Under the pieces are notes generated by a model. It saw only the letters and a program-made list of their open reading frames with translations, searched no databases and was not told where the DNA came from. Of a stretch of 64,000 nt of DNA, positions 4,800 to 22,586 are shown one piece after another. Position 1 is the first letter of the stretch, and each line of letters starts with the position of its first letter. The position numbers and the translations under genes are program-made. The DNA comes from a virus, in UHGV virus genome UHGV-1370141. One strand, written 5' to 3'.

Positions 4800-4823
4800 T
4801 TTAATGCTCCTTTAGGTTGATTC

Positions 4824-4845
4824 GGTAGGATAATATCTATCTCAC
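4824..4845 (-). promoter_or_regulatory. recurrent promoter-like motif (coding strand GTGAGATAGATATTATCCTACC)
   Basis: About 30-40 nt upstream of the SD (AAAGGAG) of the beta-like gene; same motif recurs upstream of at least 7 other minus-strand genes. Coordinates approximate. Confidence 0.45.
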
Positions 4846-4862
4846 TTAATTTAGGAACAACT

Positions 4863-5186: not shown

Positions 5187-5215
5187 AAAAAGAAGGGACA
5201 CTGTCCCTTCTTTTT
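5185..5215. terminator. bidirectional rho-independent terminator
   Basis: Perfect hairpin gaagggacactgtcccttc flanked by A-run upstream and T-run downstream, between convergent genes. Confidence 0.65.
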
Positions 5216-5221
5216 ACTACC

Positions 5222-6601: not shown

Positions 6602-6622
6602 TTATTAATCCTTGATATTTTT

Positions 6623-8326
6623 TTACTCGCCGAAAGCGCCGAATACACCGCCTGCGGTGGAAATGTTGTCAGGAGCACCAAAGCTACCGAAAGAACCGAA
6701 GCTATTGGTAGGCGCAGCCGCTGCCGTAGGAATGTTGGACAGGATATTAGTCCGGTTTTGTCCACGGTTGAATTCCTGATAACCTTCTTCTACTTTGTTC
6801 ATCAGCTGTGCCGTTTCAACAGCCAACTGATTGGTGTAGTTAAGGTCAGTTGTCACCCCACTGTGGATACGCGCTTTCATGAACGATGCGAAAGTGTAAT
6901 ACTCAGGCATCTCACCATCGAGTTCAATCTCAATGCGCGTTACCACACCAACGATACAAGTTACTGTCATGCAGCAACGGATACGGTTGTGTTTGGTCAC
7001 TTGTAGCATCAAACCTTGGAGATCGCTCATGAAACGACGTGCTAATACATCCGGCAAACCTTCGTCTGTTAATGCACCGAGAGTGTGGTGAGCAACTTGC
7101 AGCATCGGTTGTGTGGAAATATCCGCCATGCGGTTATCGTAGAAGAAGGTAATCTCACCAATCAAGTTACGGGACACGATTGGGCCGAGTACCATCGCCA
7201 AATCAAACGCAACCAGAGAACCTTGGGTAGAATAGTTATTACGTCCTACCCAATCGTCGGTACGTTCAATCTCACCGAAACCACGGCGGTCAGCTACCGC
7301 TAGAGATTGCGAAATCGCAATATCCAAATCTTGCGGGTTCATGATTGCGTTACGCAAATCAGCTAACTTAAACGCTGCGCGGTTGACTGCGTTCCAACCA
7401 CCAGACACATCCGACGTCGCGTTCGTTAACGCGGCACGGAAAGCACGGATCAGTTCGTAGTTATTGAAATTGCGCATTACCCCGATTTGGTTCAGCTCAG
7501 ATTCCACGCCAAGAGAATGGTCACCTGCAAAGAAGCTGTCTACCGTGCTCAGCTCTGTTTCAATCCCCATCGTGTTGATGAAAGAATTCGCAATCGCTGT
7601 AACAAAAGACTCAGGACGAGTCAGTTGACCAGACATCAGCTGCGGCGCGGATTGACAGTTCGCAGAGATAACCGTTTGGTCATCGTAAGTGAACTTCTCA
7701 CCTGCGTTAATCAGATTACGAATCGTGGATGCTGCTTTTGCAGTAGAGATTGCATCGATGGTGTGTTCACTGTAGCTATCTACTGTCAGAGTTTTAGACA
7801 GCACGTAGTTATCAACCAGACGGAAAGAATCTGGGTTGATACGACGTCCCCCGAACGCATCGGTAATGTACGTACACTGCAAGCCGTAGATTTCATTGAT
7901 GTATAACACCATGTCATCTGGCAGGTGGTTAAATACGGAACGCTCTGCCTGGGAGGTATAACCCGAGACGACATAACGGGTTTCCTGCGTACGACTTTCG
8001 TTAATCACGTTACCTACGATAATCGCAACGAAGTTATACACGCCAGTGTCACGGGAATTATACTGGAATTGTACCGGACGAGATTCATCATCGCTTACGT
8101 TAATCAGCGGAGTTTCAACGCCGGTCGGAGTATTATCAAACCCTACAATCTGCCCTAACGCTTCTTGATAATCTCGAGTCTTGGTCGCATTCTCGCCGTG
8201 TTGCGCCACAACGTTTACGAGTTCATCTAAAGCGTACTTAGATTCAAAGAACCCAATACGACGACGAATCTGTTTAGGAATTTCGTACACTGGGTTGATT
8301 TGAAGCTTTAGAAGTTTCATTGCCAT
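6623..8326 (-). CDS. hypothetical protein with short C-terminal FG-repeat tail
   Basis: 567-aa ORF ending NSFGSFGSFGAPDNISTAGGVFGAFGE; SD AAAGGAG upstream of ATG. Confidence 0.65.
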   Translation of the reverse strand: MAMKLLKLQINPVYEIPKQIRRRIGFFESKYALDELVNVVAQHGENATKTRDYQEALGQIVGFDNTPTGVETPLINVSDDESRPVQFQYNSRDTGVYNFVAIIVGNVINESRTQETRYVVSGYTSQAERSVFNHLPDDMVLYINEIYGLQCTYITDAFGGRRINPDSFRLVDNYVLSKTLTVDSYSEHTIDAISTAKAASTIRNLINAGEKFTYDDQTVISANCQSAPQLMSGQLTRPESFVTAIANSFINTMGIETELSTVDSFFAGDHSLGVESELNQIGVMRNFNNYELIRAFRAALTNATSDVSGGWNAVNRAAFKLADLRNAIMNPQDLDIAISQSLAVADRRGFGEIERTDDWVGRNNYSTQGSLVAFDLAMVLGPIVSRNLIGEITFFYDNRMADISTQPMLQVAHHTLGALTDEGLPDVLARRFMSDLQGLMLQVTKHNRIRCCMTVTCIVGVVTRIEIELDGEMPEYYTFASFMKARIHSGVTTDLNYTNQLAVETAQLMNKVEEGYQEFNRGQNRTNILSNIPTAAAAPTNSFGSFGSFGAPDNISTAGGVFGAFGE

Positions 8327-8359
8327 TTTGTAAATACTCCTTTAGGTTATGCCGATAAA

Positions 8360-10021
8360 TTACTGATTAAACCACGCCACTTCTTCACATTTCTTCCTGT
8401 TCTGAATTAACAGGAATTCTGCTAACATGTTCTGAAGTCGTGGGTGTGGTGTGTAGCCTAACATCACTTCTCCACTCCGAAGCATTCTTGCTGCTTCAGG
8501 TGTTGCCCTGAGATTGAAGTTAAACGGCGCAATATGTTCACGTACCAACAACGTCAAAGACGTCTTCAATGTTGACTGTTCGTAGATATTGCGATTGGTA
8601 CGGTATGCCTGAGGATAAAATCTATCCGATTTTATTTTGATCTCATTATCAATAGGTTCGATTGGATAACCCCCATTGTTGGGATCTAAAACCATTTCAC
8701 AGCTTAGCAACTGTGCAATCTCATGCATTCCGTAGTAGATATAAATCGCTTGTGCGATCCCCATTGCATTCTTAAACGCAGCAGCGTCAATGTCCTTATA
8801 GGTTCTGCGGTCAGCAAAGCGATGCAGTGCGGCTGCAACCAACCACTCGTACAGTTCGTAGAACGGATATTGATGATTCAGGTGAATAGAATCAATCAGT
8901 ACCTTAGCATCCGCAGGAGCGATATCGATCCCTAAGGAACGAACCACACGACGATAATCGTTGAAAAACTCTTGGGTACGAACAAACTCTTTCATCGGCG
9001 CTTTAGAGCGCGCTTGAACCAAGTCTATCGCACAAGTTTTCCCTTTCTCACCGTTAAACATAATCTTTTCAGGATGCGCTTTTAAGATGACGTTCTGTGA
9101 CGAAATCTTTCCTGCAAATCCTGTTTCGATTTCCTGCTTGATATTAAAGTACATCCCTGCAACGATGTTGTTCTCCACCATCGTACCTGGAGGTAACTCT
9201 GCGCCGATGAGTTTCATGGCGATTAAGCGAATCACCGCGAATGCCATGATGTACTCTTCCACCATATCCGTACCGTAACCACAGATAGAGGCCAGCACCG
9301 TTAAGTTCGCACTGTTCGGTCCTTTATTGCCACCGTCCTGTACTTTCGAAATCACCGACACTAAGAAGTCCCGCAATTTACTGATTGCAGGTAGTTGTGC
9401 TATCTCGGTGTCGTAAAGCAATTCCATGCAATGGGTTAAGTTATAAACGCTTTTCCGCTTGGAGTCCACAGCGGCGCGTGTTGTTGGGAAAGCATCCATG
9501 ACCAAGAATACCGGAATGAACGGTTTTACCATCAACGACAGTATGACCAGTTCGTAGTAGTCTTGTACGATATACGTCATCTCTTTCGGATAGTTAGATG
9601 ACATTTCTTCGTAAGTTTCGTGGACGTTTTGAGGAATCCACACGGAGCTTTGTGGATAGAGTTGGCGGAATCTGTCCGCGTGGTGGAATTTGGCAATTTG
9701 TGCAACAATCTCTGGCGCATGTTTACGAATCGTTTCGGGTTCTTCATTACCCAGCATTTCTAACTCTTCGTACGCCGAGAATAATTCTTCCTTTTCCTCC
9801 GACGTTAACGTTGACCAATAACGTTCGATTTCCATGAACATAATTTTGTCATGGGTAACCACTTTGCCGGAGCTATCGCGTACGTCTGGCACATTCGCAT
9901 CTTTGCGTCCATTACGGAATCCGTTAAACCCTACTTCCTTATCACCGTAACTAATAATGAGACGGTCGCGATTTTTCTCAATACGCATTTTAAAATCTCC
10001 AGGGATAACATAGTCGACCAC
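8360..10021 (-). CDS. hypothetical protein
   Basis: 553-aa ORF; track start is GTG at 10021, a more plausible start is the ATG at about 9988 (M12) preceded by GGAG. Confidence 0.6.
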   Translation of the reverse strand: MVDYVIPGDFKMRIEKNRDRLIISYGDKEVGFNGFRNGRKDANVPDVRDSSGKVVTHDKIMFMEIERYWSTLTSEEKEELFSAYEELEMLGNEEPETIRKHAPEIVAQIAKFHHADRFRQLYPQSSVWIPQNVHETYEEMSSNYPKEMTYIVQDYYELVILSLMVKPFIPVFLVMDAFPTTRAAVDSKRKSVYNLTHCMELLYDTEIAQLPAISKLRDFLVSVISKVQDGGNKGPNSANLTVLASICGYGTDMVEEYIMAFAVIRLIAMKLIGAELPPGTMVENNIVAGMYFNIKQEIETGFAGKISSQNVILKAHPEKIMFNGEKGKTCAIDLVQARSKAPMKEFVRTQEFFNDYRRVVRSLGIDIAPADAKVLIDSIHLNHQYPFYELYEWLVAAALHRFADRRTYKDIDAAAFKNAMGIAQAIYIYYGMHEIAQLLSCEMVLDPNNGGYPIEPIDNEIKIKSDRFYPQAYRTNRNIYEQSTLKTSLTLLVREHIAPFNFNLRATPEAARMLRSGEVMLGYTPHPRLQNMLAEFLLIQNRKKCEEVAWFNQ

Positions 10022-10022
10022 A

Positions 10023-10045
10023 AAGATAAAATCTATCTAAGATAA
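10023..10045 (-). promoter_or_regulatory. recurrent promoter-like motif (coding strand TTAGATAGATTTTATC)
   Basis: Variant of the GATAGATATTATC motif immediately upstream of the 8360..10021 gene. Approximate. Confidence 0.35.
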
Positions 10046-10077
10046 CTTCGACTGTGTTCTGCACACATACACGATAA

Positions 10078-10114
10078 GAAGCCCCAGGATTCCCTGGGGC
10101 TGAATTATTGTTTT
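10078..10114. terminator. candidate terminator hairpin
   Basis: Hairpin gccccagg-attc-cctggggc with T-rich flank, just downstream of the 10122..10763 gene. Confidence 0.35.
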
Positions 10115-10121
10115 ACGTTAA

Positions 10122-10763
10122 TTAGATAATGTCGTCAAAACTGCTGTCTGGTGCGGGTGCTTTTGTTGCCTGTTGGTTGTAACCACCGCCGTTATTGTTG
10201 CTATTATAGCCGCCACGACCGTAGCTACCGCCACCAGTGTTGTTGAACTCGCGAGGTTTATAGTTGTCACGGAAATCTTCCAGGAAGATATCAGCATTCT
10301 TAATAAACGCACGCAGAGTACGTTCTGCCAGTTCTAAATCAGAAACCTGTTGGCCATTACGGAAAACACGATAACCTTTCGGATAGGTGAAGTAGAATTT
10401 CTTCTGGCGTGCGCCAGCTCCTGGGATCTCACCACTGATAGCCATGAACGGCGTCAGGTTTTCATCGCGGCCTACGTGCAAGCTAACTGGCGATTTCTTC
10501 CCTTTAGCATCTTCCCATTTGTGAACGATTTTCTCTGCCTTAACCAACACGGTGCGCAGCGTTTCGAAAATGTCCACACAAACGGTATAGCCAGCAGTAA
10601 AATACAAACCTTCGCCTTTACCGAAAGAATAGCTGAACTTCATCAGCTCAACGTCACCGTTGAATTCGTTAAGCTCGATACCCAGTTTACGGGTACGTCC
10701 CTGCTGATCTGGTTCGGTTTGCGGGTAAAGATATTTTTCTTTAAAGAAGTTTTTGTTAACCAT
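10122..10763 (-). CDS. hypothetical protein with Gly/Tyr/Asn-rich disordered tail and acidic tip (SSB-like tail architecture)
   Basis: 213 aa; C-terminus NTGGGSYGRGGYNSNNNGGGYNQQ...SSFDDII resembles the Gly-rich linker plus acidic tip (DDDIPF) of SSB proteins; the N-terminal domain was not recognised. Confidence 0.55.
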   Translation of the reverse strand: MVNKNFFKEKYLYPQTEPDQQGRTRKLGIELNEFNGDVELMKFSYSFGKGEGLYFTAGYTVCVDIFETLRTVLVKAEKIVHKWEDAKGKKSPVSLHVGRDENLTPFMAISGEIPGAGARQKKFYFTYPKGYRVFRNGQQVSDLELAERTLRAFIKNADIFLEDFRDNYKPREFNNTGGGSYGRGGYNSNNNGGGYNQQATKAPAPDSSFDDII

Positions 10764-10821
10764 TTACTTTATCCTATTCTACATTTTCGGAGTGCTCAAA
10801 CTAACAAAACGTTCTGTAAAA

Positions 10822-11658
10822 TTAGCGAGCCAGTCTGTGAAGGAACTCAATTACGAAAGGTTCGTTTACCAACTTCAAGCAACTGTAGATACGATCCATC
10901 GTCGTGTCTTGTCGCCAGTGATATTTTTCAGCGGTCTTTAACACCACTTTACGAACTTTTCTGTCCAGGGGAGCGAACATATACCCGTCGCCAAATAACG
11001 TCAGGAACGCTTTGTTAAACGGGATCTGTTCGGGTTTACCGTTAAGTTTCGTGTACCATTCTAATCGACCTTTAATCTTACCCGTGTGTGACTCTAAGAG
11101 ATTCAGTAACGGGAAATCTTTGTAGGCCAATAAGTCGGCAGGGTAATGGGTTAAAATCAGCGTATCGTGCTGCCCTTTCGGGTATACATCAAAGCTTTCG
11201 AACTTCTCAGCATATTTTTCACCGTACAACTTTAACGTGTCATGTTCTAACGCGTTATAGTGTAACTGGTTGGGCGTCATCTTTTCCTGCCCACCTGCGA
11301 TAGTACGGAACGACGCTTCGGGAAAGATTCTGTTCGCACTTTTGTACGTACAGAGATAAGGGACACATAGCACCGAAGGCGCTACCGCTTTCGCGGTAGC
11401 GTAGATAGTATTGATATCTTCTTCAATCGATGCCAGCATCACTTCAGGCGTTAATCTTTCACGATTTGTCTCAAACGCGTAAAACGCGTTACGGAACAGC
11501 GTCCGTACATTCAGGTAAATTTCCTGATACTTGTGGATAGGGATCGGTCCCTTCCAGTCGGCATACTCTCCTTCATGGAGGAGCCCTTCAAAAGCCAACG
11601 ATGTGGCAATTGACATCTGATAAAACCCAAACGTGCGATCAACACTGATTGGGGTCAT
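10822..11658 (-). CDS. hypothetical protein
   Basis: 278-aa ORF, start overlaps stop of the upstream phosphoesterase gene. Confidence 0.55.
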   Translation of the reverse strand: MTPISVDRTFGFYQMSIATSLAFEGLLHEGEYADWKGPIPIHKYQEIYLNVRTLFRNAFYAFETNRERLTPEVMLASIEEDINTIYATAKAVAPSVLCVPYLCTYKSANRIFPEASFRTIAGGQEKMTPNQLHYNALEHDTLKLYGEKYAEKFESFDVYPKGQHDTLILTHYPADLLAYKDFPLLNLLESHTGKIKGRLEWYTKLNGKPEQIPFNKAFLTLFGDGYMFAPLDRKVRKVVLKTAEKYHWRQDTTMDRIYSCLKLVNEPFVIEFLHRLAR

Positions 11659-12803
11659 TTAATACTCCTGATAATGTCAGTAACAATTTGTGTATCGTAT
11701 TTAAACGGCACAAGTGCTTCTAACATAATCGACTCAACATTCTCTTCAGAGATAGTTTCTTCGACTTCAGCGTCGAGAGCGAAACCTGCTGCGAGAACTT
11801 GCTCTTCTTCAGGCGTACGAATACGCGTGCCTGAAATATGGAAAGAATATTGCGACTTCCATTTAGTAATGGCCTCGGCCAATGGAGAATCAGGATAATA
11901 TTCAATTTCCAACCGCCCTATCTCGTAGGACGGATGAGTATCAATATACTCTAACGCCTTGAGACACTTCGCATACTGCGATTCGTAGTCTTCTTCTGCC
12001 GCAATTTTTATTTGCGGGCAAGCGCGTTCGTTAACCAGGAAATAATCCCTGGCCAACTCAGGAGTGAAATCGACAATAGCAAAGCCTTTGTCCTCTTCTT
12101 CACCCATTACCAGACGATCGGGACTGCCTGGTACACGAATCTTACCCAACTGTTTTCGACGATGATCGTGGTGAATGATAATCAAATGCTTGACTAACGG
12201 TTCCCAAAAATCAGTGTGGAAAAAACGGGTAGACTCAACAGGAACTTGAAACTGAAAACAGCCATGCATAAAGCAGAAGTCCATCTGCTCTATACCGCGC
12301 GTGGCTAAAAGCTCAGCCATTTCCTTTTCCGTTGCGGTGGCGTCAATTGTCTCCGACCCTAGGGCTTTATACTCGTCCTGAACCCACCCAATCGTGGCAT
12401 CAAGTGCCTCGTCGTAGAAAACACCAATCTTATCCAGATACAAACAATCTGCGCCAACGGCTGAATTCAGCTCCTCGACAATTTTTGACTGTTTATGATC
12501 GTGGGACGGTGTTCCCTCCAGGACACGGATTGCCGTATTGGTGCTTTTAGCCCAGAACAACAACCAAGTTAAAAACCCTATGGCTTCTTGAGAATCTTCC
12601 TGCCGCAAGTGCCGGGAATCATCAAATAGATCACCAGCTATATAAATAGCGTCAATCGTGTTTTCAAACTTCACCAACGTCTCTTTCAACACATTAACAA
12701 TGTGCCACGTCGGTACACGGCGATGCAAGAGATGTACATCGCCTGTTGAAAAGATACGTTTAACGCCCGCAGGTTTCGGCGGAGGATTAGTAATCGTAAT
12801 CAT
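11655..12803 (-). CDS. calcineurin-like metallophosphoesterase (SbcD/Mre11-like nuclease or phosphatase)
   Basis: Ordered motifs STGDVHL (GDxH), IAGDLFDD (GDxxD), LEGTPSHD (GNHD-like), FMHG, IIHHDH (GHxH-like). Confidence 0.6.
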   Translation of the reverse strand: MITITNPPPKPAGVKRIFSTGDVHLLHRRVPTWHIVNVLKETLVKFENTIDAIYIAGDLFDDSRHLRQEDSQEAIGFLTWLLFWAKSTNTAIRVLEGTPSHDHKQSKIVEELNSAVGADCLYLDKIGVFYDEALDATIGWVQDEYKALGSETIDATATEKEMAELLATRGIEQMDFCFMHGCFQFQVPVESTRFFHTDFWEPLVKHLIIIHHDHRRKQLGKIRVPGSPDRLVMGEEEDKGFAIVDFTPELARDYFLVNERACPQIKIAAEEDYESQYAKCLKALEYIDTHPSYEIGRLEIEYYPDSPLAEAITKWKSQYSFHISGTRIRTPEEEQVLAAGFALDAEVEETISEENVESIMLEALVPFKYDTQIVTDIIRSIK

Positions 12804-13449
12804 CGAAACGTCTTGTTTTAACGGGTTCGGGTTTCTTCTCTACAACCTGGGCGGGTTTACTTTTACCTTCAATCTGATTGCAAAGTTCTTCCAACCCTTC
12901 TGGATAAGGAAGTTGACCGTTAACTTGATAGCGACGGAAAATCCAGTTTAAGAGATCGATGACTTTTTTTGCCCGCAGTGCATTTTCTTCGTACGACAGT
13001 CTCTCGATACCGTCTAACGTGTAATCGATCATCTGGTGCAACTGCTGCTCACCCACTTCGGAGATAATATCAGCAGTCTGCCGAATAGCTTCCGTCTCCT
13101 CCGTTAATGAGGGTTGACCTTCAACGTGTTGAAGAGAACGACCGGTATTCAGCAACGGTGGGATAGTGAATAACAGTTTAGAATGGTCAGCATCCGAAAC
13201 AATCTGTAACGGAACAAACGCGCTACCGACGTAATCTACCCAAGTGTCTTCGTTAAACGTACCGTCTAACATCCCTGACAACAAAGGTAAGCCCTGACGA
13301 CGGAACATCGATTCTGTAAAAACACTGCACACATTCTGGCCTTGCTGGAGTACGCTCTCCATTTCCAGAAGTTTATCGTATTCGAATTTAGCGCGGCCAG
13401 AAAGTTCATTAATAGGAACCCCATTAAATTTTCCTGGTTCTTGACTCAT
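12787..13449 (-). CDS. hypothetical protein
   Basis: 220-aa ORF in tight minus-strand array. Confidence 0.5.
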   Translation of the reverse strand: MSQEPGKFNGVPINELSGRAKFEYDKLLEMESVLQQGQNVCSVFTESMFRRQGLPLLSGMLDGTFNEDTWVDYVGSAFVPLQIVSDADHSKLLFTIPPLLNTGRSLQHVEGQPSLTEETEAIRQTADIISEVGEQQLHQMIDYTLDGIERLSYEENALRAKKVIDLLNWIFRRYQVNGQLPYPEGLEELCNQIEGKSKPAQVVEKKPEPVKTRRFDDYDY

Positions 13450-13451
13450 CT

Positions 13452-13835
13452 TTATTCGTCCTCAATACGTGAAGTTTCAGTTTCGACATACCGTTCAACA
13501 TCGTACCAAATCCCGCCCGATTTCGCACGAGCTTGAATAATGATACGATAACGAACATCAGTATCGGGGAGATACTCCCATTTCGTTTCGACCTCAACGC
13601 CCTCAGGGAAGATATTCCCGTAAATAGCAGTCAGGTCAGATTTGACTTTGGAAGCAAGACCGTCGGGATCTTGTGCATACATTTGCTGTGCTTTTGCTAA
13701 TGAACGCACATTCCCTTGATAAATCTGCGATTGGCTATACCCTGCTTCTGTATAGTGATTCATTGCCTCACGAATACGTTCGCGGGGAGTTCTGGCCCAA
13801 CCGCGAGTAGAAACTGTTCCTACTGCAATAGCCAT
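13452..13835 (-). CDS. hypothetical protein
   Basis: 127-aa ORF following a terminator. Confidence 0.5.
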   Translation of the reverse strand: MAIAVGTVSTRGWARTPRERIREAMNHYTEAGYSQSQIYQGNVRSLAKAQQMYAQDPDGLASKVKSDLTAIYGNIFPEGVEVETKWEYLPDTDVRYRIIIQARAKSGGIWYDVERYVETETSRIEDE

Positions 13836-13871
13836 CTTACTCTCCTATCACATTGATAGCTCGAGCTGTAA

Positions 13872-13900
13872 TTAAGAAAAAATAAGGGGCCGAAGCCCCT
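13872..13900 (-). terminator. rho-independent terminator
   Basis: Hairpin aggggccgaagcccct followed on minus strand by TATTTTTTCTT, downstream of the 13905..14492 gene. Confidence 0.6.
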
Positions 13901-13904
13901 CACT

Positions 13905-14492
13905 TTAGCAGGACGCACCAAGTTCTGAACAGGGATCTTCATCTTCCCAGTCAAAACTTCGCATACGTGCCCAGTTAATCTGCATGTCAACTTGCTGAAC
14001 GCGAGTAAGTCGATTGGAGCGATCTTCGTTGGATACCCAGTTCCAGATACGATCCTCGTCGTACTCCGTTGACATACCTGACGTAACTTCACGATAGTTA
14101 TCGTCAGTGTGCATGTACGCCGAGCCTCGGAATCGGTCTACCTTAGAGTAACCGTTCTCAAAGCCCGTCGCCATGTTATTGTTGTAGAGCTGTCGGTATT
14201 CCGGCATTGCAATTAAGAACGGTTGTAACGCCTCATTCGCAAACTGGAATTGCCCGATAGTTTCAAGTTGTCTTACTACATTCGTTGCATCGCTATTTTG
14301 AACCTTACGCGCAGCTGCGTACATTTCGCGGAAACGTTGCAATGAGATCAGTTCATTACACTTCTGCTTCACGCGCTCAACCATATCCGGTGCGAAACTA
14401 GACAGGTTAAAGTTCTCTTTGAAATAACGATACATACCGCTATTTTCGTCTTGACGCTGCCAAATAGACCCGCCTAGATTCCACATGCCCAT
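13905..14492 (-). CDS. hypothetical protein
   Basis: 195-aa ORF. Confidence 0.5.
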   Translation of the reverse strand: MGMWNLGGSIWQRQDENSGMYRYFKENFNLSSFAPDMVERVKQKCNELISLQRFREMYAAARKVQNSDATNVVRQLETIGQFQFANEALQPFLIAMPEYRQLYNNNMATGFENGYSKVDRFRGSAYMHTDDNYREVTSGMSTEYDEDRIWNWVSNEDRSNRLTRVQQVDMQINWARMRSFDWEDEDPCSELGASC

Positions 14493-14498
14493 GTTTTA

Positions 14499-14738
14499 CT
14501 ACCCCGCCATTAAGATTAATTCTGAGTCGATGGCGATACCCGCCTCCAGATCTTCTTCGGTATCGCGTAAGAAACGGTTTTCCATGCTGATAAGCTCATT
14601 GTGTAACACCATGCTGCTAGACACTTCGTCTACGTTTGTGCTGGACATAAATCCGTTATCTGGGCGATAAGCCAGCGCCAAATCCATCTCCGTGGTATCG
14701 ACTAAAAGTCTAACCTGTAATTGGTCGCCGTCGAAATC
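14499..14738 (-). CDS. RNA polymerase beta' N-terminal-like subunit, exon 2 (starts at the DFDGD catalytic triad)
   Basis: Frame of track ORF 14499..14783 from codon 16 onward: DFDGDQLQVRLLVD...GFMSSTNV aligns with beta' [15 protein letters not shown]...MMSTNNI. Confidence 0.75.
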   Translation of the reverse strand, partial: DFDGDQLQVRLLVDTTEMDLALAYRPDNGFMSSTNVDEVSSSMVLHNELISMENRFLRDTEEDLEAGIAIDSELILMAG

Positions 14739-15088
14739 CTGTTTGTCCACTCCATTCCTTTTGGAGCAGGTGTGCAATGACACCCTCCCATGTTTTCACA
14801 TGGGCACAGACTATATCATAACCGTAGGTATTGCTACCCGTAGGTCTCCCCCACTTCGCCGCTAAACTAAGCAGCTACTCTACTCGGTTTTACCCTTTCG
14901 ATAGTCGTTGAACGATTTTCATCGCTGCTGGTTATCCATTATCACAACCCTTAGCATTATTGGTTAGCATAGGCTATCTTACGAATTGTTTCTGACTTTC
15001 GCCACCCTGTCGGGATCGTAAGCTTTAGGAGTTTCCAGCAATTCGAGGGATACGCACTAGAGGTTTCCCGTCTAGTGGGCCAAATTTT
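14739..15088 (-). ncRNA. group I self-splicing intron (ORF-less, about 350 nt) interrupting the RNAP beta'-like gene
   Basis: Separates ...KAPNA from DFDGDQ...; 5' exon ends in U, intron ends in G; contains P-like ACGGGAAAC, Q-like AUCCCGACAG, R-like GUUCAACGACUA and S-like GAUAUAGUCU elements with complementary GACUA/UAGUC (P7). Confidence 0.8.
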
Positions 15089-16456
15089 AGCATTCGGAGC
15101 TTTGATGACGCGATCGGAGATACGTAACGAACACTGTGTAACATCAGGGTTAACAGCTGAGATAAATAATGTCTGAATAGACAACTGTACAAGCGTCGGG
15201 TTTCGTAGCGCTGATATCATCAGGCCGTAACCGCCACGAGACTCCTTAATAAGTTCGTTGATAATTTCATGAACCAACGGTACGTACTGCATTGATGCAA
15301 ATGCAATAACACGTTCACACTGCCGTGGTGTGAAGTTCCGTCGACCGAGTTTGTTTTCAATAGCTACAGATTCTAACGTCACTAGCCAACGCCAAGGTGC
15401 AATAACCTTCATAGCGTCATGCGGTTCTGAGATTGGAGAGATTGTTACACGACCACCCCACGGGATGTGTGTTGAACCTAACTTGGCACGATAGAATCCA
15501 GGTTTACCTTCCATCACCTCCTGACGATGGTCAATATAGAAGTACGCTAACTGGCGATTTGCTTTTAATGCGCGACTAATAATGAAATGGGTTGGGATGC
15601 GTCGTGCATTAGTATAAAGTAACGCGATGTTCTTAACCGCGTCTATTGCACCGGTATAAACAGGATCGATAAAGATACCCTGACGTCGTTCCTCCGTAAC
15701 GATCAGTTTGGGTGAAATGATTGGAAGATGAACCGGAAAGAAAGTGTGTGATTGTTCTTCGAAGAACTTTTTCCACTCTAAGCGAGTACGTTCGCTCTCA
15801 TATCGGTTATTTTTCGTTGGTGGATAAATTTCTTTCCAGACTTCAGGAGAAGTTAAGATATTGAATATTGTTCGATGGTGGTCAATAAAATTCCTAATGC
15901 CGCGTGGAACTTGATACTCGCTAAAGATACGTTTGATTATTCGGGATCGAGTACCTTCGTCTTTATCAGGTTTATAGCACGGATCTAACATCCACATCAA
16001 TAAATCAGAACCACGTTCTACGGTCACTTTGTTTCGGTTAAACTTCTTAAGTTTAGAACCGAAGAAAGCGTTAAACATCGACCAGAATCGTGGGTTAATA
16101 AAGTTGCCTATTTCCTCCGGGGCACGAATCCAGACTTCTGAAACAATACGATGTTCTGTCACTACATAGCCGCAGGTAGGACATCGCATACCGAGATTAT
16201 ATCGATGAACGATAGGTGCTTCACAATCAATACTACAAATGGGTGCCGAATTTAGCGTCTCGTCGACTGTCCGGTTCTGTAAGATTCGGTTAATCAACTC
16301 TGACGTCTCAATGGTGTCTTTATATTTCGCAACATCATTGATAATCATCGGCGGTTTATAGCCCTTTTCCTCCGCCTCTTTGAAAGCGTCACGTAACATT
16401 TTATCGTGACTGATTAATCGCCCTGATACACCGAAGTATTGTAATCTGTCTTTCAC
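15089..16456 (-). CDS. RNA polymerase beta' N-terminal-like subunit, exon 1
   Basis: GFYRAKLGSTHIPWGGRVTISPI resembles [32 protein letters not shown] resembles NRAPTLHRLGIQ; Cys cluster CPTCGY near the N-terminus; exon ends ...RVIKAPNA immediately before the catalytic motif. Confidence 0.75.
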
Positions 16457-16544: not shown

Positions 16545-18383
16545 TCAGACAGGGCTGTAGTTACCGGAAGCGAATGACATGTTGTAGTCACTGCCGAAGG
16601 AGTTCGGGCCGTTACCAGACAGAGTGAAGTTTTCACCGCCGTTGTTGAAGAACAACGTATTAGCCAGGCTATTGACTGCGGTAACACCATTCACTTGGAA
16701 GATGCAGTTATCACGCACGTAGTCCAGCAGCGCTTTGGCGAATTTCGGGTTGATTGCCAAATCGGTGGACTCGCCAGTTACGACCGGCTGTTTGCTGCCG
16801 AACAGGGAAGCGGCCAGCTTCAGCAGGTACAAACGCTGTTCAGTCGCGTTGAACTGACGGTGTGAGTAAGATTGCGCGTACAGGTAAGTGTAGGCATCGT
16901 GTTGGTTATCACCAACTTTGCTCAGAACAGACACCAGGTCCTGATCCTGGAAGCTACGTTTCTGGCTGTTGCTGAAATACTGACCGGAAACAGTCGGTAC
17001 GCCAGCGATAACAACGTGGTTGCAGGTGATGGTATTAACTTTCAGCATTTCAGCGAAACGCTGCGTGAACACCGTAGCACCTTTCGGAGCCATGTTGTCC
17101 AGGATGGTCAGGATGTTAGACAGTGTACCAGTGTTACCCTGGGAAACTTCACTGAACATCGTGGAGAGACCACCGATACCGTTACCAGCACGATGGTTCA
17201 CAACCAGCGCAGCTTCTGGGTAGGCGAACATGTTCAGGCACTCTTCGATAGCTTCGCGGTTGCCATCGATTTTGCTCAGGTCCGGACGTTTGTCACCCCA
17301 CTCTACGTATTCCATAACGCGGGAGAAACGACGATCGGTTTTGTTGAGAGAGTGCATGAAGCGTTCACGCCAGCCACCGATAGCGGCGATTTCTGCAAAG
17401 GCGGCCAGTTCAATCAGCTGACGTTCGATTGGTACCATAGCCCCGGAAGACTGAGAGTCCATCAGAGAAACAACAACTTCTGCTTGCAGCTGTTTGTAAT
17501 CCTGTACGCCATTTTCAGGTGCACGGCGGCCAGTGTAACGCAGGTTGATGTAACCCACACCCGCAACGCTCGGATAACCCTGAACACGTTCAGAGGACAT
17601 CAGCGTCGGGTTAGTATCGAAGCTACCGGTCTGAGTGTGTTCAACCTGAACCATCAGGTCAGCACGTTGTGCAGAGCCGTTAACGTCAGTCAGAGAACCT
17701 TCGTCTACCGCAGTTACCTGTGCAACGAAGCGATCGCCACGAGTCAGTTTCAGCTGACCCAGGTAGCCCGGAATACGGCCAAAGATACCCAGAGTCAGCT
17801 GACCCATCAGCTGGATAGCCCACTCTTCGGTCAGCGTTTTACCCAGGTCTGGAATGCAGTTCATTACCATGAATTGCACAGACGACAGGTTCTGCTGTTC
17901 GCAGATTTGTTTGGTGATGGAATCCATTACGCCAGCCTGACCGAACAGAGATGCCAGGGTGTAATAAGTTTCTTTACCGTTGATTTCACGGAAGCGTACA
18001 GACTGACCGTGTTCGAAGAACAGGATACCGTACATCCAGTGGCTGCCGTTTTCATCTGCTGGCGCAGCAACGTATGCCGCAGAACCCATTTCTGGATTCA
18101 CACCATCGATAACACCGCAGCGGAATTTGCTCAGGTACGGGTTACGTTCAACCATCTTCGCAATCAGCGCGGTGAAATGTGAAGCGGCAGAAACGTAGGA
18201 CATATAGCCGAACGCTTTATCGAAAGTGGAGATATTCTTAGACATACCACCGAAAGCATTTGCTGCGTGGGTGTTATCCACACTGCCTGCACCAGCACCT
18301 ACACCACCAAAAGACGGAGCCGGGTCTACACCAGCAGCGCCAGCATTTACGTTGTTAGGAATTTCGTTAAACTCTTTAGCCAT
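16545..18383 (-). CDS. highly expressed major protein; candidate phage-nucleus shell protein (chimallin-like) or capsid protein
   Basis: 612 aa with strongly optimal codon usage (ctg, cgt, ggt, aac), Gly-rich N- and C-terminal extensions, tandem promoter motifs upstream and a strong terminator downstream; no diagnostic motif recognised. Confidence 0.35.
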   Translation of the reverse strand: MAKEFNEIPNNVNAGAAGVDPAPSFGGVGAGAGSVDNTHAANAFGGMSKNISTFDKAFGYMSYVSAASHFTALIAKMVERNPYLSKFRCGVIDGVNPEMGSAAYVAAPADENGSHWMYGILFFEHGQSVRFREINGKETYYTLASLFGQAGVMDSITKQICEQQNLSSVQFMVMNCIPDLGKTLTEEWAIQLMGQLTLGIFGRIPGYLGQLKLTRGDRFVAQVTAVDEGSLTDVNGSAQRADLMVQVEHTQTGSFDTNPTLMSSERVQGYPSVAGVGYINLRYTGRRAPENGVQDYKQLQAEVVVSLMDSQSSGAMVPIERQLIELAAFAEIAAIGGWRERFMHSLNKTDRRFSRVMEYVEWGDKRPDLSKIDGNREAIEECLNMFAYPEAALVVNHRAGNGIGGLSTMFSEVSQGNTGTLSNILTILDNMAPKGATVFTQRFAEMLKVNTITCNHVVIAGVPTVSGQYFSNSQKRSFQDQDLVSVLSKVGDNQHDAYTYLYAQSYSHRQFNATEQRLYLLKLAASLFGSKQPVVTGESTDLAINPKFAKALLDYVRDNCIFQVNGVTAVNSLANTLFFNNGGENFTLSGNGPNSFGSDYNMSFASGNYSPV

Positions 18384-19651: not shown

Positions 19652-19705
19652 GACTTACTCTCCCCCGCTGAGGACTCTTTCGAATCCTCATATAATAGAG
19701 TAATA

Positions 19706-19745
19706 ACGTTGCACAAGTGTGCAACGTTACCTCTTTATTTTATCG
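19706..19745 (+). terminator. rho-independent terminator
   Basis: Hairpin acgttgcaca-agt-gtgcaacgt followed by CTCTTTATTTTAT, between convergent genes. Confidence 0.5.
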
Positions 19746-19773: not shown

Positions 19774-22071
19774 TTACTCCTCATCGAATGTTTCTTCTTC
19801 ATCTTCCTCCTCATCATCCTCACCTGCCCTTTCTGATTTCTTGACATACTGTACTTCCGCAAGCTCTTTATACAATCCTTCGTCTTCAGCGGTTTTATCG
19901 TAGAAATCCGACAGTAAACGCATACGGTTTTTATCCATCATGAACACACCTAAGCATTCAAGGATGTGATAGTACGGTTCTACGGTGGAGAACGCCGTGC
20001 GACGAATGTCCGCAATTTCGATCAATTCTTTAGGAATACCGTAGTTCTCTACTAAGTGCTCTGGCAGAATCAACGTTTTGTATTTACGGAAATTGTTTTC
20101 CTCAAACCACGCGGTTGCACCGTTTCGGATAATCGGATCTTCGATGCTGTCCAACCACTCTTTAATCTTGGTTTTGTTTTCTAAAACCACCGGTAGTTTT
20201 ACAGCGTCGTAAGGCGGTTCTTCCAAATGGCCAAACTTCGGACCAAAGATGGCGTTGTACATTCGATGATAGTGATAGTTTTTCTCGTCCTTCTCGTTAT
20301 AAGCGCTACGTTCCTTAATGTTCGTTGTTTTCAGATAGCCCGGATTACCCGAACGAATGGAATCCATAATGGTGTGTTCAATCTGCGCAACCTTTTCCAG
20401 TAACGGAATGATTTCAATCTGGTCACCACGTGCGACGACTTCACACAGTCCTTTAATAGTATTCTTAAACTCCTTCATGATAATCGGTGGAATGTTCGAG
20501 GTACGTAAAGACACCCCTTTTACTTCCAGCTCGGGATCTTTTTTCAACTGACCTTCCTGACCGGTAATCAGTGAGAAGTAGTGTTTTGCTTTAGTCGTTA
20601 ATGCAAACGAATCGAACTTAAATTCGTTCTTCATCGCGTACAAGAACAGACGTTCTTTCGCTACACCGATATTCGCAGACATACTCGCCATCAGGTGACG
20701 GAGGTGTTGCGTTGCAATATAAATCATTGCATTGGATACACGAGTTGCTTCTTCACCGTAATGCTTACCAGTATACCAAACCGCCCACCATTGTGCAGTC
20801 ATCATTGTAGAGTCGGTATCTGAAACCACACCTACCCGACGAACCACATCCGGCATTCTTGCGATATTAATCGGTAAGTTTTTAGTGGTCAGGATATTGC
20901 GAATTAAAAGTGCGTACTTACCGATGGTTTTCTGTAAGAACAGTGCGGAACGAATCAGCTCCTTATAGTCGTCCTGCTGATCCCACGGTAATGGCTTTTT
21001 CTTATCGTCGAGTTTCTTAACGTGGCTGAACGCTTTGCCCATCGGCACCACGTCAGTACGGAACTGGGAGATGATGATCTGCATGTCACCATCAATGGTT
21101 TTTTCCGCAGCATCCCAGTCTTCGACTTCGTCAATCATCTCACGAGAAATCAACGCGGTAATAAAACCACGCATGAACTGATCGTTGTACTTCGCAAGAT
21201 GATAAAAATCACCCATGTAAACAAATGCCGCGCGAGTGAGCGGAGAAACATTTGATACATAGTGCTCAACAAACTCCATCCCCTCTTCGTTCTTGAAATA
21301 AAAGTCCGCAGAGTAATGAATCACGTCCATCACTTCTTCTACGGTCGGATAATGAAGCTCGTACGTATCCATACATTTCTTGAAGCTATTCCAATCGGTT
21401 AACGTGCCGATGGACAAGAAATGATCGATGATACGTGACGGTGTGTCGTAATGACGATTACCGCCTAATAAACGTTCGTTACCTGCGTTACCGAATGAGG
21501 TTGCAGTACGGCAGGTTGATGTTAAAACAGAGTGTGAAGACTGGTTAAAGATGATCGTGTACGGAGAAGAGAATGCGCCCGACATCCCGTTGTTCAGAGT
21601 CTTGACTGCGTTCTGTTCATTCTTTTTGTTAATCTGTAAAACTCTATTACCTGCTGCTTCGGCAGCAAACATCTCTTTTTTCACCGCTGCACGTTTAGCT
21701 ACGTTAGCGGCAGTGAATTCTGATAGCTTGGAACGTTTGATGTGTTCTGGGATATAAAACGTTAACGACGGTGCGGAGATAATCTGTTTATCGATTACGG
21801 TTTTAAACAGTTTATCAACAGTTGTGTATTTCTCTTCACGGTCTCCTGTTTTCTGATTACGCACCCACATCTTACACAGCGGTGATTCGGTTGATAACTC
21901 ACCGCCAGGTGCCAACATCTCGTCAACTTCTTTACGACATAATTCCAAAGGGTATTTTTGTGCGGTTACGTTGTGAATGTATAGCGCAACCTGTTCACGA
22001 TAAGCATCGTTAATATCGATATCACGATGGTACTCGTCTACCGATAAACGAAAAGGAGAATTGTATTCCAC
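19774..22071 (-). CDS. DNA polymerase-like protein (family B-like palm motifs), acidic C-terminal tail
   Basis: VGVVSDTDSTMM resembles motif C (YGDTDS); KAKHYFS about 55 aa later resembles the KxY motif; EVKGVSLRTSNIPP resembles KIMGLETQKSSTP of T4-family polymerases; ends ERAGEDDEEEDEEETFDEE. Motifs A/B and exonuclease motifs not recognised. Confidence 0.4.
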   Translation of the reverse strand: MEYNSPFRLSVDEYHRDIDINDAYREQVALYIHNVTAQKYPLELCRKEVDEMLAPGGELSTESPLCKMWVRNQKTGDREEKYTTVDKLFKTVIDKQIISAPSLTFYIPEHIKRSKLSEFTAANVAKRAAVKKEMFAAEAAGNRVLQINKKNEQNAVKTLNNGMSGAFSSPYTIIFNQSSHSVLTSTCRTATSFGNAGNERLLGGNRHYDTPSRIIDHFLSIGTLTDWNSFKKCMDTYELHYPTVEEVMDVIHYSADFYFKNEEGMEFVEHYVSNVSPLTRAAFVYMGDFYHLAKYNDQFMRGFITALISREMIDEVEDWDAAEKTIDGDMQIIISQFRTDVVPMGKAFSHVKKLDDKKKPLPWDQQDDYKELIRSALFLQKTIGKYALLIRNILTTKNLPINIARMPDVVRRVGVVSDTDSTMMTAQWWAVWYTGKHYGEEATRVSNAMIYIATQHLRHLMASMSANIGVAKERLFLYAMKNEFKFDSFALTTKAKHYFSLITGQEGQLKKDPELEVKGVSLRTSNIPPIIMKEFKNTIKGLCEVVARGDQIEIIPLLEKVAQIEHTIMDSIRSGNPGYLKTTNIKERSAYNEKDEKNYHYHRMYNAIFGPKFGHLEEPPYDAVKLPVVLENKTKIKEWLDSIEDPIIRNGATAWFEENNFRKYKTLILPEHLVENYGIPKELIEIADIRRTAFSTVEPYYHILECLGVFMMDKNRMRLLSDFYDKTAEDEGLYKELAEVQYVKKSERAGEDDEEEDEEETFDEE

Positions 22072-22124: not shown

Positions 22125-22166
22125 GAAAAAAGAAAAAAAAAATAAACCCTCTCCGAAGAGAGGGTC
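22125..22166 (-). terminator. rho-independent terminator
   Basis: Hairpin accctctc-cgaa-gagagggt followed on minus strand by a long T-run, downstream of the 22173..22586 gene. Confidence 0.6.
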
Positions 22167-22172
22167 TTAACT

Positions 22173-22586
22173 TTAACCGGCTTCGTTTTCAATGATTTCG
22201 ATTTCGACGTCATTGAATCCGCGTGCGTTGAGCGCTGCTACCAGATCGTCTTTTTCTTGTTTGTTGTCCAACTGAACCACAAACCGTGCAGTGAGGCTTT
22301 TCACCACACGAACTTCACGTACCCACGCATCCGCAGTGACGCCGATGCGGTTACTGGAGTCCTTAAACAACATGTAGTTGTACGCGGTCAAATCGTTAAC
22401 CGGTTGTCCAACCAAAGACGAGTAAATGTTTTTCTGGATAGCGGCTAAATCTTCACCTGAGTTTTTAGCGAGCTCATAACCCACCTTTGACGCGAGTACA
22501 CGGACTCGCGTTTCGTTACCACGTAACGGGGTATCGTAAACGATGTTTACAATTGAACCCGGTTCGATGTTACTGAAGTCGTACAT
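22173..22586 (-). CDS. hypothetical protein (last gene of a 9-gene array)
   Basis: 137-aa ORF. Confidence 0.5.
   Translation of the reverse strand: MYDFSNIEPGSIVNIVYDTPLRGNETRVRVLASKVGYELAKNSGEDLAAIQKNIYSSLVGQPVNDLTAYNYMLFKDSSNRIGVTADAWVREVRVVKSLTARFVVQLDNKQEKDDLVAALNARGFNDVEIEIIENEAG

What the first reader, a model, noticed from the sequence alone, without database searches (positions are those of the whole stretch)
19774..22071. Divergent DNA-polymerase-like protein with only the palm/thumb motifs recognisable and an acidic tail
Motif C-like SDTDS, a KxY-like KAKHY and a downstream KG-x-S-x-R-T-S segment resemble family B polymerases, but motif A, motif B and the 3'-5' exonuclease motifs could not be found in the 765-aa protein. 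It ends in a poly-acidic tail (EDDEEEDEEETFDEE). It could be a split or highly diverged replicative polymerase, or a different nucleotidyltransferase.
Basis: partly seen in the sequence, partly recalled or inferred. Interest (0 to 1): 0.5.

Follow-up and report, generated by a model that had tools for sequence, protein, structure and literature searches.

The report
Half of a split phage polymerase
This gene encodes the fingers-palm-thumb half of the known two-gene family B DNA polymerase of phiKZ-like giant phages; it is an ordinary ortholog, and the "missing" motif A and proofreading motifs sit on a partner protein encoded about 29 kb away.

Summary
It is a full-length member of Pfam PF20286, "Divergent Family B DNA polymerase" (E = 1e-284). 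It is about 80% identical to Salmonella phage SPN3US YP_009153312.1, the published prototype, and orthologous to phiKZ gp050. Structure prediction and fold search return RB69/T4 gp43 and Pol alpha/delta.

Motif A and Exo I-III are absent from this chain. They are invariant on a second protein (phiKZ gp082 / SPN3US gp222) that aligns to RB69 gp43 residues 57-435 (HHalign probability 98.6%). That protein occurs in the same phages as the polymerase half. In a 98%-identical genome it is encoded 7.4-9.1 kb beyond the window's left edge.

So the gene split falls inside the palm, and the polymerase active site is most likely assembled from two chains. The two key papers I could read do not say this. 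There is no intein or intron. The acidic tail is real but restricted to the SPN3US-like clade. The upstream gene is the known polymerase-associated SH3 protein (PF20287). Verdict: a known kind, low novelty, with one useful refinement.

The parts
19774..22071 (-). CDS of the C-terminal (fingers-palm-thumb) subunit of the phiKZ-type split family B DNA polymerase; 765 aa, GTG start, stop codon at 19774-19776. Ortholog of phiKZ gp050, SPN3US gp248 and EL gp021.
   Evidence: ORF listing. PF20286 at E = 1e-284, residues 11-724 against profile 3-705/705. 299 phage records hold a match, the best about 80% identical. AF2 model pLDDT 84.9. Fold hits are RB69/T4 gp43.
21787..22071 (-). N-terminal family-specific module (residues 1-95) with invariant Y14, near-invariant F7, R16, Y24 and D77/R78. 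No counterpart in RB69 gp43. Inferred to be the docking joint for the partner chain's C-terminal segment.
   Evidence: Column conservation. No alignment to the gp43 profile. Helices at 20-35 and 42-53 and a hairpin at 65-84 in the model. The docking role is inference.
21463..21786 (-). Palm-to-fingers segment and fingers domain (residues 96-203). It includes the 'SAPSLTFY' hairpin, fingers residues R127/K131 (21679-21693), motif B QNAVKTLNNGMSG (residues 153-165, 21577-21615) and the 'LTSTCR' helix (residues 183-188, 21508-21525).
   Evidence: Pfam DNA_pol_B sub-threshold hit at residues 89-189. Profile hit to Pol zeta 1021-1098. HHalign to RB69 475-588. Invariant columns.
20857..21462 (-). 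Family-specific all-helical insert of about 200 residues (204-405) between the fingers/palm helix and motif C. It contains the invariant 'RAAFVYxG-D288-LYHLAKYN' (21184-21234). Function unknown; Iyer et al. proposed it substitutes for a sliding clamp.
20800..20835 (-). Motif C beta-hairpin (residues 413-424), with the catalytic SDTDS at 20809-20823 (D418, D420).
   Evidence: S417-T422 invariant in 51/51. Strands 415-418 and 421-424 in the model. EL D398, named in PMC3201878, equals D420.
20497..20592 (-). KxY motif (KAKHY, residues 494-498, 20578-20592) through the primer-binding segment KGVSLRTS (residues 518-525, 20497-20520).
   Evidence: HHalign and hmmsearch align residues 496-545 to RB69 706-755, with K496=K706, Y498=Y708 and G519=G729. 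Invariant K496, Y498, E516, K518, G519, V520 and P528.
19900..20487 (-). Thumb domain (residues 529-716) ending in the family's conserved C-terminal motif RLLSDFY (residues 718-724, 19900-19920), where most family members terminate.
   Evidence: Model elements. C-termini of 51 homologs. The 'TRLISDFY' motif is noted in PMC3201878 as a possible clamp-binding-like motif.
19777..19899 (-). Clade-specific C-terminal extension (residues 725-765): 'YVKKSER' followed by a poly-acidic run (751-765, 19777-19821). Net charge -15; predicted disordered at the end.
   Evidence: Present only in relatives at least about 72% identical (P0001-P0012); absent in most of the family. Statistics. pLDDT below 50 for residues 752-765.
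22173..22586 (-). Upstream gene for a 137-aa SH3-fold protein, the conserved neighbour of this polymerase (ortholog of phiKZ gp049). Candidate third subunit.
   Evidence: PF20287 SH3DP at E = 8.2e-29, full length. The same pairing is found in scaffold_27 and in phiKZ. Antisense knock-down of phiKZ 049 impairs plaque formation (PMC12571901).
22144..22167 (-). Terminator-like hairpin (10-bp stem, T-run) between the SH3 gene and the polymerase start.
   Evidence: Consensus scan only. Function not shown.
19702..19731 (.). Bidirectional 13-bp-stem hairpin in the convergent intergenic region just after the polymerase stop codon.
   Evidence: Consensus scan only. Function not shown.

Best explanation
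The ORF encodes the C-terminal catalytic subunit of the replicative family B DNA polymerase of a phiKZ-like (SPN3US-related) nucleus-forming jumbo phage.

This chain carries the fingers (R127, K131, motif B with K157/N161), a family-specific helical insert of about 200 residues, the motif C hairpin (D418, D420), the KxY primer-binding motif and the thumb. It does not carry motif A or the 3'-5' exonuclease.

Those lie on a second protein of about 593 aa (phiKZ gp082 / SPN3US gp222 type). Its gene sits roughly 29 kb away on the opposite strand, about 7.4-9.1 kb beyond the left edge of this window. The gene split falls inside the palm domain, between RB69-equivalent residues of about 435 and 455.

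The inference is that the two chains must assemble to form one polymerase active site. The motif A aspartate and steric-gate tyrosine come from the partner chain, and the motif C aspartates, motif B and KxY come from this chain. Extra residues on both sides of the split (about 60 at the partner's C-terminus and about 95 at this protein's N-terminus) probably form the joint. The SH3 protein encoded just upstream is a likely third subunit.

Shown here: family membership, fold, motif locations on each chain, co-occurrence and gene positions. Inferred: physical assembly, the composite active site, and the roles of the insert, the SH3 protein and the acidic tail.
For: Family and fold:
- PF20286 at E = 1e-284, full length. 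PHROG 2927 'DNA polymerase'.
- About 80% identity to SPN3US YP_009153312.1, the prototype cited in PMC7824862.

Motifs on this chain:
- HHalign maps residues 120-185 to RB69 475-588 and residues 496-545 to RB69 706-755.
- The corresponding residues are invariant in 51 homologs.

No motif A on this chain:
- D19 is D in 34 and N in 14 of 51. D17 is D30/E11/N4/G3.
- Two members lack an acid at both positions.
- The column matching EL D229, which PMC3201878 proposed as the motif A Asp, is variable.

Motif A and the exonuclease on the partner:
- The partner family aligns to RB69 57-435 with probability 98.6% and E = 6.4e-16.
- D152/E154, N262/D266, Y395/D399 and D506, D508, Y513, P514, N521, T526 are invariant in 48-49 of 49 members. 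The motif A spacing is exactly that of RB69 D411/Y416/P417/N424/T429.
- The partner model matches RB69 gp43 at E = 1.7e-13.
- Its motif A segment is poorly defined in isolation (pLDDT 34-62), whereas residues 1-455 mostly score above 90.

Co-occurrence and position:
- 299 and 291 phage records hold the two halves, with identical genus counts.
- The window is 100% identical to a 224.8-kb scaffold.
- A 98.1%-identical genome carries the partner 7.4-9.1 kb left of the window.

No fused forms:
- Of the 150 best among 1,199 representatives at E <= 1e-10, all but one are about 545-780 aa, nearly all with the match starting near residue 1. The one longer protein is fused to a 5'-3' nuclease, not to the partner.

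Function:
- Knock-down of phiKZ 049, 050 and 082 each impairs plaque formation (PMC12571901).
Against: - No experiment or complex model shows the two chains bound or the active site assembled. I could not run a multimer prediction or inspect model coordinates.
- An invariant aspartate, D288 in 'RAAFVYxGDLYHLAKYN', exists on this chain and is unexplained. It lies after motif B and the model predicts it as helical, but a non-canonical catalytic role is not excluded.
- Kazlauskas & Venclovas (PMC3201878) modelled both catalytic aspartates on the polymerase chain.
- The partner gene of this exact genome was not seen. It was seen only in a 98%-identical relative and in SPN3US, phiKZ and EL.
Confidence: 0.85

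Rival explanations
1. The 765-aa protein is a complete, self-sufficient polymerase whose own aspartate serves as motif A (as modelled in 2011 for phage EL, or the invariant D288). The separately encoded protein contributes only proofreading as a loosely associated standalone exonuclease.
For: [quoted passage not shown] PMC7824862 calls the exonuclease a standalone protein that 'might associate'. D288 is invariant in 51/51 and followed by LYHL, loosely resembling DxxSLY.
Against: The EL D229-equivalent column is variable in the wider family (E11, D10, V7, N5, A5...). D288 lies C-terminal to motif B, the wrong order for a PolB palm, and the model places it in a confident helix-turn-helix rather than at the end of a strand. 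The partner keeps a perfect, invariant motif A with canonical spacing, which a pure exonuclease would have no reason to keep.
Confidence: 0.1
2. The gene is one piece of a polymerase gene interrupted by an intein, intron or recent rearrangement, rather than a stable two-subunit arrangement.
For: Introns and homing endonucleases occur in phiKZ-like phages. The PhiPA3 partner gene matched in three pieces over about 2.35 kb.
Against: The Pfam match is one uninterrupted stretch covering the whole profile. No intein or endonuclease domain is present. The two halves are about 29 kb apart on opposite strands in SPN3US-like genomes, and are also separate genes in phiKZ and EL. All but one of the 150 best representatives have the short length of about 545-780 aa, and none is fused to the partner.
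Confidence: 0.02
3. The protein is a different nucleotidyltransferase or an inactivated pseudo-polymerase with a structural role.
For: Sequence similarity to classical PolBs is very low. phmmer against the PDB finds nothing relevant, and the DNA_pol_B hit is below Pfam's threshold.
Against: Every catalytic or substrate-binding residue expected on this half is invariant: R127, K131, K157, N161, D418, D420, K496 and Y498. The fold matches are PolBs. The phiKZ ortholog is needed for plaque formation. It is the only replicative polymerase known in these phages (PMC3201878).
Confidence: 0.03

Closest known systems
phiKZ-type divergent family B DNA polymerase (Pfam PF20286 divDNApol; 'PolBrPhiKZ' of Kazlauskas & Venclovas 2011; phiKZ gp050, EL gp021, SPN3US gp248/YP_009153312.1)
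   Same: Full-length match at E = 1e-284. Same length class. Same invariant motifs B, C and KxY, the same helical insert and the same C-terminal SDFY motif. Same gene neighbourhood: SH3 gene upstream, an opposite-strand gene, then the shell-protein slot and RNAP beta downstream.
   Different: About 20% sequence divergence from the nearest annotated phage. It carries the SPN3US-clade C-terminal acidic extension, which most of the family lacks.
RB69/T4 gp43 (classical phage family B replicase)
   Different: gp43 is one chain of about 900 aa. Here the enzyme is two chains split after motif A. The fingers are about 48 residues shorter. A 200-residue helical insert precedes motif C. Y567 is replaced by Ser. 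No sliding clamp or clamp loader is known in these phages (PMC3201878).
Naturally split family B polymerases: T4-like 'split DNA polymerase' of Acinetobacter and Aeromonas phages, and (from my own knowledge, not tested here) the two-subunit PolB of Methanothermobacter and the intein-split PolB of Nanoarchaeum
   Same: The catalytic core is divided between two polypeptides that must assemble. In the T4-like case the N-terminal piece also carries the exonuclease and motif A (about 502-aa proteins covering 55-56% of RB69 gp43).
   Different: The split point differs. The T4-like split falls at about RB69 residue 500, inside the fingers. Here it falls at about 435-455, before the fingers. The phiKZ-type genes are far apart and on opposite strands, and both sides of the split have gained extra residues.
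SH3DP (Pfam PF20287), the SH3-fold protein associated with phage DNA polymerases
   Same: The upstream 137-aa ORF is a full-length member (E = 8e-29) in the conserved position next to the polymerase gene.
   Different: Nothing notable. Its role as a subunit remains a proposal (PMC7824862).

Membership tests
Pfam PF20286 divDNApol (phiKZ-type divergent PolB, polymerase subunit) | Full-length match to the family profile above the gathering threshold | tested here: met
   946.7 bits against a cut-off of 25.7. E = 1e-284. Residues 11-724 against profile 3-705/705.
Pfam PF20286 divDNApol (phiKZ-type divergent PolB, polymerase subunit) | No fused 3'-5' exonuclease; length about 700-800 aa; long helical insert before the motif C hairpin | tested here: met
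   765 aa with no exonuclease domain. All-helical residues 204-405 in the model. 149 of the 150 best representatives are about 545-780 aa; the exception is 967 aa.
Pfam PF20286 divDNApol (phiKZ-type divergent PolB, polymerase subunit) | Conserved neighbourhood with an upstream SH3DP gene and a jumbo-phage (phiKZ-like) genome context | tested here: met
   PF20287 at 22173-22586. phiKZ-type families in the window: Peptidase_S80, phiKZ_gp29PR and PhiKZ_VTX. Synteny with phiKZ, EL and SPN3US.
Family B DNA polymerase (catalytic core) | Motif C (YGDTDS-type DxD on a beta-hairpin) | tested here: met
   SDTDS at 417-421, invariant 51/51, strands 415-418 and 421-424.
Family B DNA polymerase (catalytic core) | Motif B (KxxxNSxYG) and the fingers basic residues | tested here: met
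   Q153, K157, N161 and G165 align with RB69 Q556, K560, N564 and G568. R127/K131 align with R482/K486. All invariant. The Tyr is replaced by S164.
Family B DNA polymerase (catalytic core) | KxY primer-terminus motif | tested here: met
   K496-H-Y498 aligns with RB69 K706-R-Y708. Invariant.
Family B DNA polymerase (catalytic core) | Motif A (DxxSLYPS) on the same polypeptide | tested here: not met
   No invariant acid at the canonical position. Motif A is invariant on the partner chain instead: D506/D508/Y513/P514/N521/T526 in SPN3US numbering. It is met only for the two-chain enzyme.
Family B DNA polymerase (catalytic core) | 3'-5' exonuclease motifs Exo I, II and III on the same polypeptide | tested here: not met
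   Absent here. Present and invariant on the partner: D152/E154, N262/D266, Y395/D399. The cognate partner in the 98%-identical genome has VYDVETR, WNHEFD and YCVYNIFD.
Family B DNA polymerase (catalytic core) | PolB three-dimensional fold (palm, fingers, thumb) | tested here: met
Family B DNA polymerase (catalytic core) | DNA-templated dNTP polymerisation activity | not testable with these tools
   No biochemical data for any family member were found in the searchable literature. There is only knock-down evidence of essentiality in phiKZ.
Intein- or intron-split polymerase gene | Intein (Hint) domain, homing endonuclease, or adjacent exon pieces | tested here: not met
   No such Pfam hit and a single uninterrupted profile match. 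The partner is about 29 kb away on the other strand.

The most novel reading that the evidence does not exclude
The phiKZ-type replicase has a composite polymerase active site. The metal-binding motif A aspartate and the steric-gate tyrosine are supplied in trans by the chain that also carries the proofreading exonuclease. Neither gene product would then be a polymerase on its own, and the 'standalone exonuclease plus polymerase' description in the two key papers, including the 2011 assignment of the motif A aspartate to the polymerase chain, would need correcting. Family-specific extra segments at the split, the SH3 protein and the helical insert would together hold the enzyme on DNA without a sliding clamp.
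Probability: 0.75. Interest if true: 0.45.

Novelty: new member of a known kind. Interest (0 to 1): 0.25.

Why it matters
For genome annotation, the gene can be named confidently: DNA polymerase, family B, phiKZ-type, polymerase subunit.

For the biology of nucleus-forming jumbo phages, the useful point is that the enzyme should be treated as an obligate two-chain, possibly three-chain, replicase. Expression, import into the phage nucleus, structural work and inhibitor or knock-down design all need both gp050-like and gp082-like proteins.

The partner family has no Pfam or NCBIfam model, so it is often left as 'hypothetical protein'. A model built from the alignment made here would fix that.

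None of this changes the assessment that the flagged gene itself is an ordinary ortholog of a described family.

Tried and rejected
1. Motif A at residues 16-24 ('RDIDxxxxY', with D-x4-Y spacing and a coil-then-helix topology like DxxSLY). Rejected as the catalytic motif. D19 is Asn in 14 of 51 members, D17 is variable, and two members lack both acids.

2. D77 ('TGDR'). It is 90% conserved but sits in a hairpin turn. No support.

3. D288 as motif A. It is invariant, but it lies after motif B and the model predicts it as helical. It is left unexplained.

4. EL D229, from the 2011 paper. It maps to a variable column.

5. Direct sequence search of the PDB with the protein. It returned only a spurious lipoxygenase hit. 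HHalign against a single RB69 sequence aligned only the KxY region, so a 34-sequence gp43 profile was needed.

6. Looking for the exonuclease partner inside the window. The Pfam census of 57 ORFs found none, and tblastn with phiKZ gp082 found nothing. The partner lies outside the window.

7. NCBIfam. It has no model for the polymerase half, the partner, the SH3 protein or the 612-aa neighbour.

8. Confirming the 612-aa neighbour as chimallin. Synteny supports it, but phmmer against the PDB gave nothing and BLASTP against the EL shell protein gave E = 0.07. Left as probable only.

9. The OBP/Cornelissen 2012 paper that first called the enzyme 'split subunit' is not in the library. I could not check how that paper placed the split.

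Full report
**Observation.** The window holds an ORF at 19774..22071 on the minus strand, 765 aa, starting with GTG. Its N-terminus, MEYNSPF, matches the N-termini of close homologs. SDTDS (residues 417-421), KAKHY (494-498), KGVSLRTS (518-525) and the terminal EDDEEEDEEETFDEE (751-765) are all present at the stated place. The tail has 13 acidic residues in 15, and none of 20,000 shuffles of the protein produced such a window.

**What it is.** The protein matches Pfam PF20286, "Divergent Family B DNA polymerase", over its whole length (E = 1e-284, residues 11-724 against profile 3-705 of 705). It also has a sub-threshold DNA_pol_B hit at residues 89-189, and it matches PHROG 2927, "DNA polymerase".
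- tblastn finds it in 299 phage records, all phiKZ-like jumbo phages of Pseudomonas, Erwinia, Salmonella, Vibrio, Serratia, Aeromonas, Klebsiella and Ralstonia.
- The best matches are about 80% identical: SPN3US and its relatives, where RefSeq annotates the gene as DNA polymerase.
- The SPN3US protein, YP_009153312.1, is the example Iyer et al. [quoted passage not shown]
- Kazlauskas and Venclovas discovered the family in 2011 by profile-profile searches. They noted that the 3'-5' exonuclease is a separate ORF (PMC3201878).
- The window is 100% identical to a 224,801-bp metagenomic scaffold (ENA ERZ28595873, scaffold_27). It has no near-identical genome in the annotated phage collection.

**Fold.** An AlphaFold2 model built on 51 homologs is confident (mean pLDDT 84.9, pTM 0.79).
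- Foldseek against the PDB returns only RB69 and T4 gp43 at the top, with probability 0.96-1.0.
- The other hits are generic helical bundles that match a long helical block in the model.

**Motifs on this chain.** I aligned 51 homologs down to about 35% identity and compared their profile with a 34-sequence gp43 profile referenced on RB69. Two collinear alignments result.
- Residues 120-185 align with RB69 475-588. This gives R127=R482, K131=K486, Q153=Q556, K157=K560, N161=N564, G165=G568 and T184=T587.
- Residues 496-545 align with RB69 706-755. This gives K496=K706, Y498=Y708 and G519=G729.
- An independent profile search of PDB sequences gave the same two regions, against Pol zeta and RB69.
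- All these residues are invariant in the 51 sequences, as is S417-D-T-D-S-T422.

Between the post-fingers helix ('LTSTCR', 183-188) and motif C lies an all-helical insert of about 200 residues (204-405, pLDDT 93-98). This is the "unusually long multi-helical insert" described by Iyer et al..

**Where motif A is.** No invariant acidic residue lies upstream of the fingers.
- The tempting 'RDIDxxxxY' at residues 16-24 has D19 replaced by Asn in 14 of 51 sequences, and two members have no acid at positions 17 or 19.
- The only invariant acids before motif C are E199 and D288. D288 lies after motif B, in a predicted helix-turn-helix.
- The 2011 paper marked EL D229 and D398 as the two active-site aspartates. 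EL D398 equals D420 here. EL D229 maps to a column that is variable across the wider family (E11, D10, V7, N5, A5...).

The answer came from the second phiKZ protein annotated "DNA polymerase", gp082. Near its C-terminus it reads HIADLDIVSTYPNVSQILNIARET, which is a classical motif A.
- I collected its family using SPN3US gp222 (YP_009153338.1) as the query: 94 clusters, essentially without Pfam coverage. I aligned 49 members.
- The family profile aligns to the gp43 profile at RB69 residues 57-435 with probability 98.6% and E = 6.4e-16.
- Invariant in 48-49 of 49 members are Exo I D152/E154, Exo II N262/D266, Exo III Y395/D399 and motif A D506, D508, Y513, P514, N521, T526. The motif A residues have exactly the spacing of RB69 D411, Y416, P417, N424 and T429.
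- A model of the cognate partner matches RB69 gp43 at E = 1.7e-13.
- In that model residues 1-455 mostly score above 90 pLDDT, whereas the C-terminal part carrying motif A is poorly defined (pLDDT 34-62). That is the expected behaviour of a palm strand whose sheet partners are on another chain.

**The split.** The partner covers RB69 57-435 and this ORF covers RB69 from about 455 onward. The gene split therefore lies inside the palm, after motif A and before the fingers.
- RB69 has only about 20 residues between these points.
- The partner has about 60 further residues and this ORF has about 95 before the aligned region. I infer that these extra pieces form the joint between the chains.
- The two families have the same phyletic distribution: 299 and 291 phage records with identical genus counts.
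- They are separate genes in phiKZ (gp050 and gp082, about 35 kb apart), in EL (gp021 and gp051) and in SPN3US (gp248 and gp222, opposite strands).
- Locus L007 is 98.1% identical to window positions 1-2633 in the same orientation. It carries the partner gene at a position equal to 7.4-9.1 kb left of the window, on the plus strand, with all four motifs intact.
- Inside the window there is no partner. A Pfam census of 57 ORFs and a tblastn search with gp082 both found nothing.
- In a search of 1.84 billion representatives the family has 1,199 members at E <= 1e-10. All but one of the 150 best are about 545-780 aa, nearly all with the match starting near residue 1, so no unsplit form was found.
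- The one longer protein, P0380, is fused to a T4 RNase H/FEN-type 5'-3' nuclease, not to the partner.
- No intein or intron is involved.

**Context.** The gene immediately upstream (22173-22586) is a full-length PF20287 SH3DP, the SH3-fold protein known to accompany these polymerases. A terminator-like hairpin separates the two genes, and a bidirectional hairpin follows the polymerase stop.
- The local order mirrors phiKZ gp049-gp055 and EL gp020-gp024: SH3 protein, polymerase, an opposite-strand gene, a 612-aa protein in the slot of the nuclear shell protein, then RNAP beta.
- The identity of the 612-aa protein as chimallin rests on synteny only.
- In phiKZ, antisense knock-down of 049, 050 and 082 each impaired plaque formation (PMC12571901).
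- The polymerase of the related phage RAY localises inside the phage nucleus (PMC10299810).

**The acidic tail.** Most family members end at the conserved L-x-SDYY motif, here RLLSDFY at 718-724. The 2011 paper discussed this motif as a possible clamp-binding-like element. The 41-residue extension, with 'YVKKSER' followed by a poly-D/E run, occurs only in the SPN3US-like clade at about 72% identity or more. It carries a net charge of -15 and its end is predicted disordered. Its function is unknown. By analogy with the acidic C-termini of T7 gp4/gp2.5 and T4 gp32 (my own knowledge), it may mediate a protein-protein contact in the replisome. I did not test this.

**Verdict.** The flagged gene is an ordinary ortholog of an already described and curated family, in an uncultivated SPN3US-related jumbo phage.

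The one refinement is that motif A is carried by the exonuclease-bearing chain, so the active site is probably composite. This is well supported by sequence and profile evidence. It is not stated in the two key papers I could read, and one of them assigns the aspartate differently. It remains unproven without a complex structure or biochemistry.

Noticed in passing
P0380 (967-aa protein from the representatives search; not in the window): A natural fusion of a T4 RNase H/FEN-type 5'-3' exonuclease (PF02739 at residues 29-157, PF09293 at residues 173-256) to a phiKZ-type polymerase subunit (PF20286 at residues 265-967). This Pol I-like arrangement links the subunit to Okazaki-fragment processing.
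   Followed up: partly
window 21184-21234 (residues 280-296 of the polymerase subunit): 'RAAFVYxG-D288-LYHLAKYN' is the most conserved segment of the family-specific helical insert. D288 and N296 are invariant in 51/51 and their function is unknown. D288 is not the canonical motif A.
   Followed up: partly
window 16545-18383 (-): A 612-aa protein in the syntenic slot of the phage-nucleus shell protein chimallin (phiKZ gp054, EL gp023). Sequence similarity is too weak to confirm this: PHROG 8316 has unknown function, phmmer finds no PDB hit, and BLASTP against EL gp023 gives E = 0.07.
   Followed up: partly
L007:10001-11782 (+), equal to about 7.4-9.1 kb left of window position 1: The partner-subunit family (N-terminal domain, exonuclease and motif A) has no Pfam or NCBIfam model and is often annotated 'hypothetical protein'. 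Alignments A4 and A5 made here could seed one.
   Followed up: yes
Pseudomonas phage PhiPA3, NC_028999.1, 74335-76688: The partner-subunit gene matched in three pieces spread over about 2.35 kb for about 620 aa. This suggests an interruption, perhaps an intron or insertion, in that phage.
   Followed up: no
P0207-P0240 (T4-like phages of Acinetobacter and others): Many T4-like gp43 homologs are proteins of about 502 aa covering only the first 55-56% of RB69 gp43, and one is named 'split DNA polymerase'. This is an independent PolB split at a different point, inside the fingers.
   Followed up: no
window 460-16456 (-): The left part of the window mirrors phiKZ gp055-gp074: split multisubunit RNAP beta-like genes (14957-16456, 2559-4799, 460-2559), an SbcD-like nuclease (11655-12803), and homologs in the slots of phiKZ gp066-gp070. 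This confirms a phiKZ-like, nucleus-forming jumbo phage context.
   Followed up: partly
window 22144-22167 and 19702-19731: Strong terminator-like hairpins flank the polymerase gene. One lies between the SH3 gene and the polymerase start. The other is bidirectional and lies in the convergent gap after the stop.
   Followed up: no
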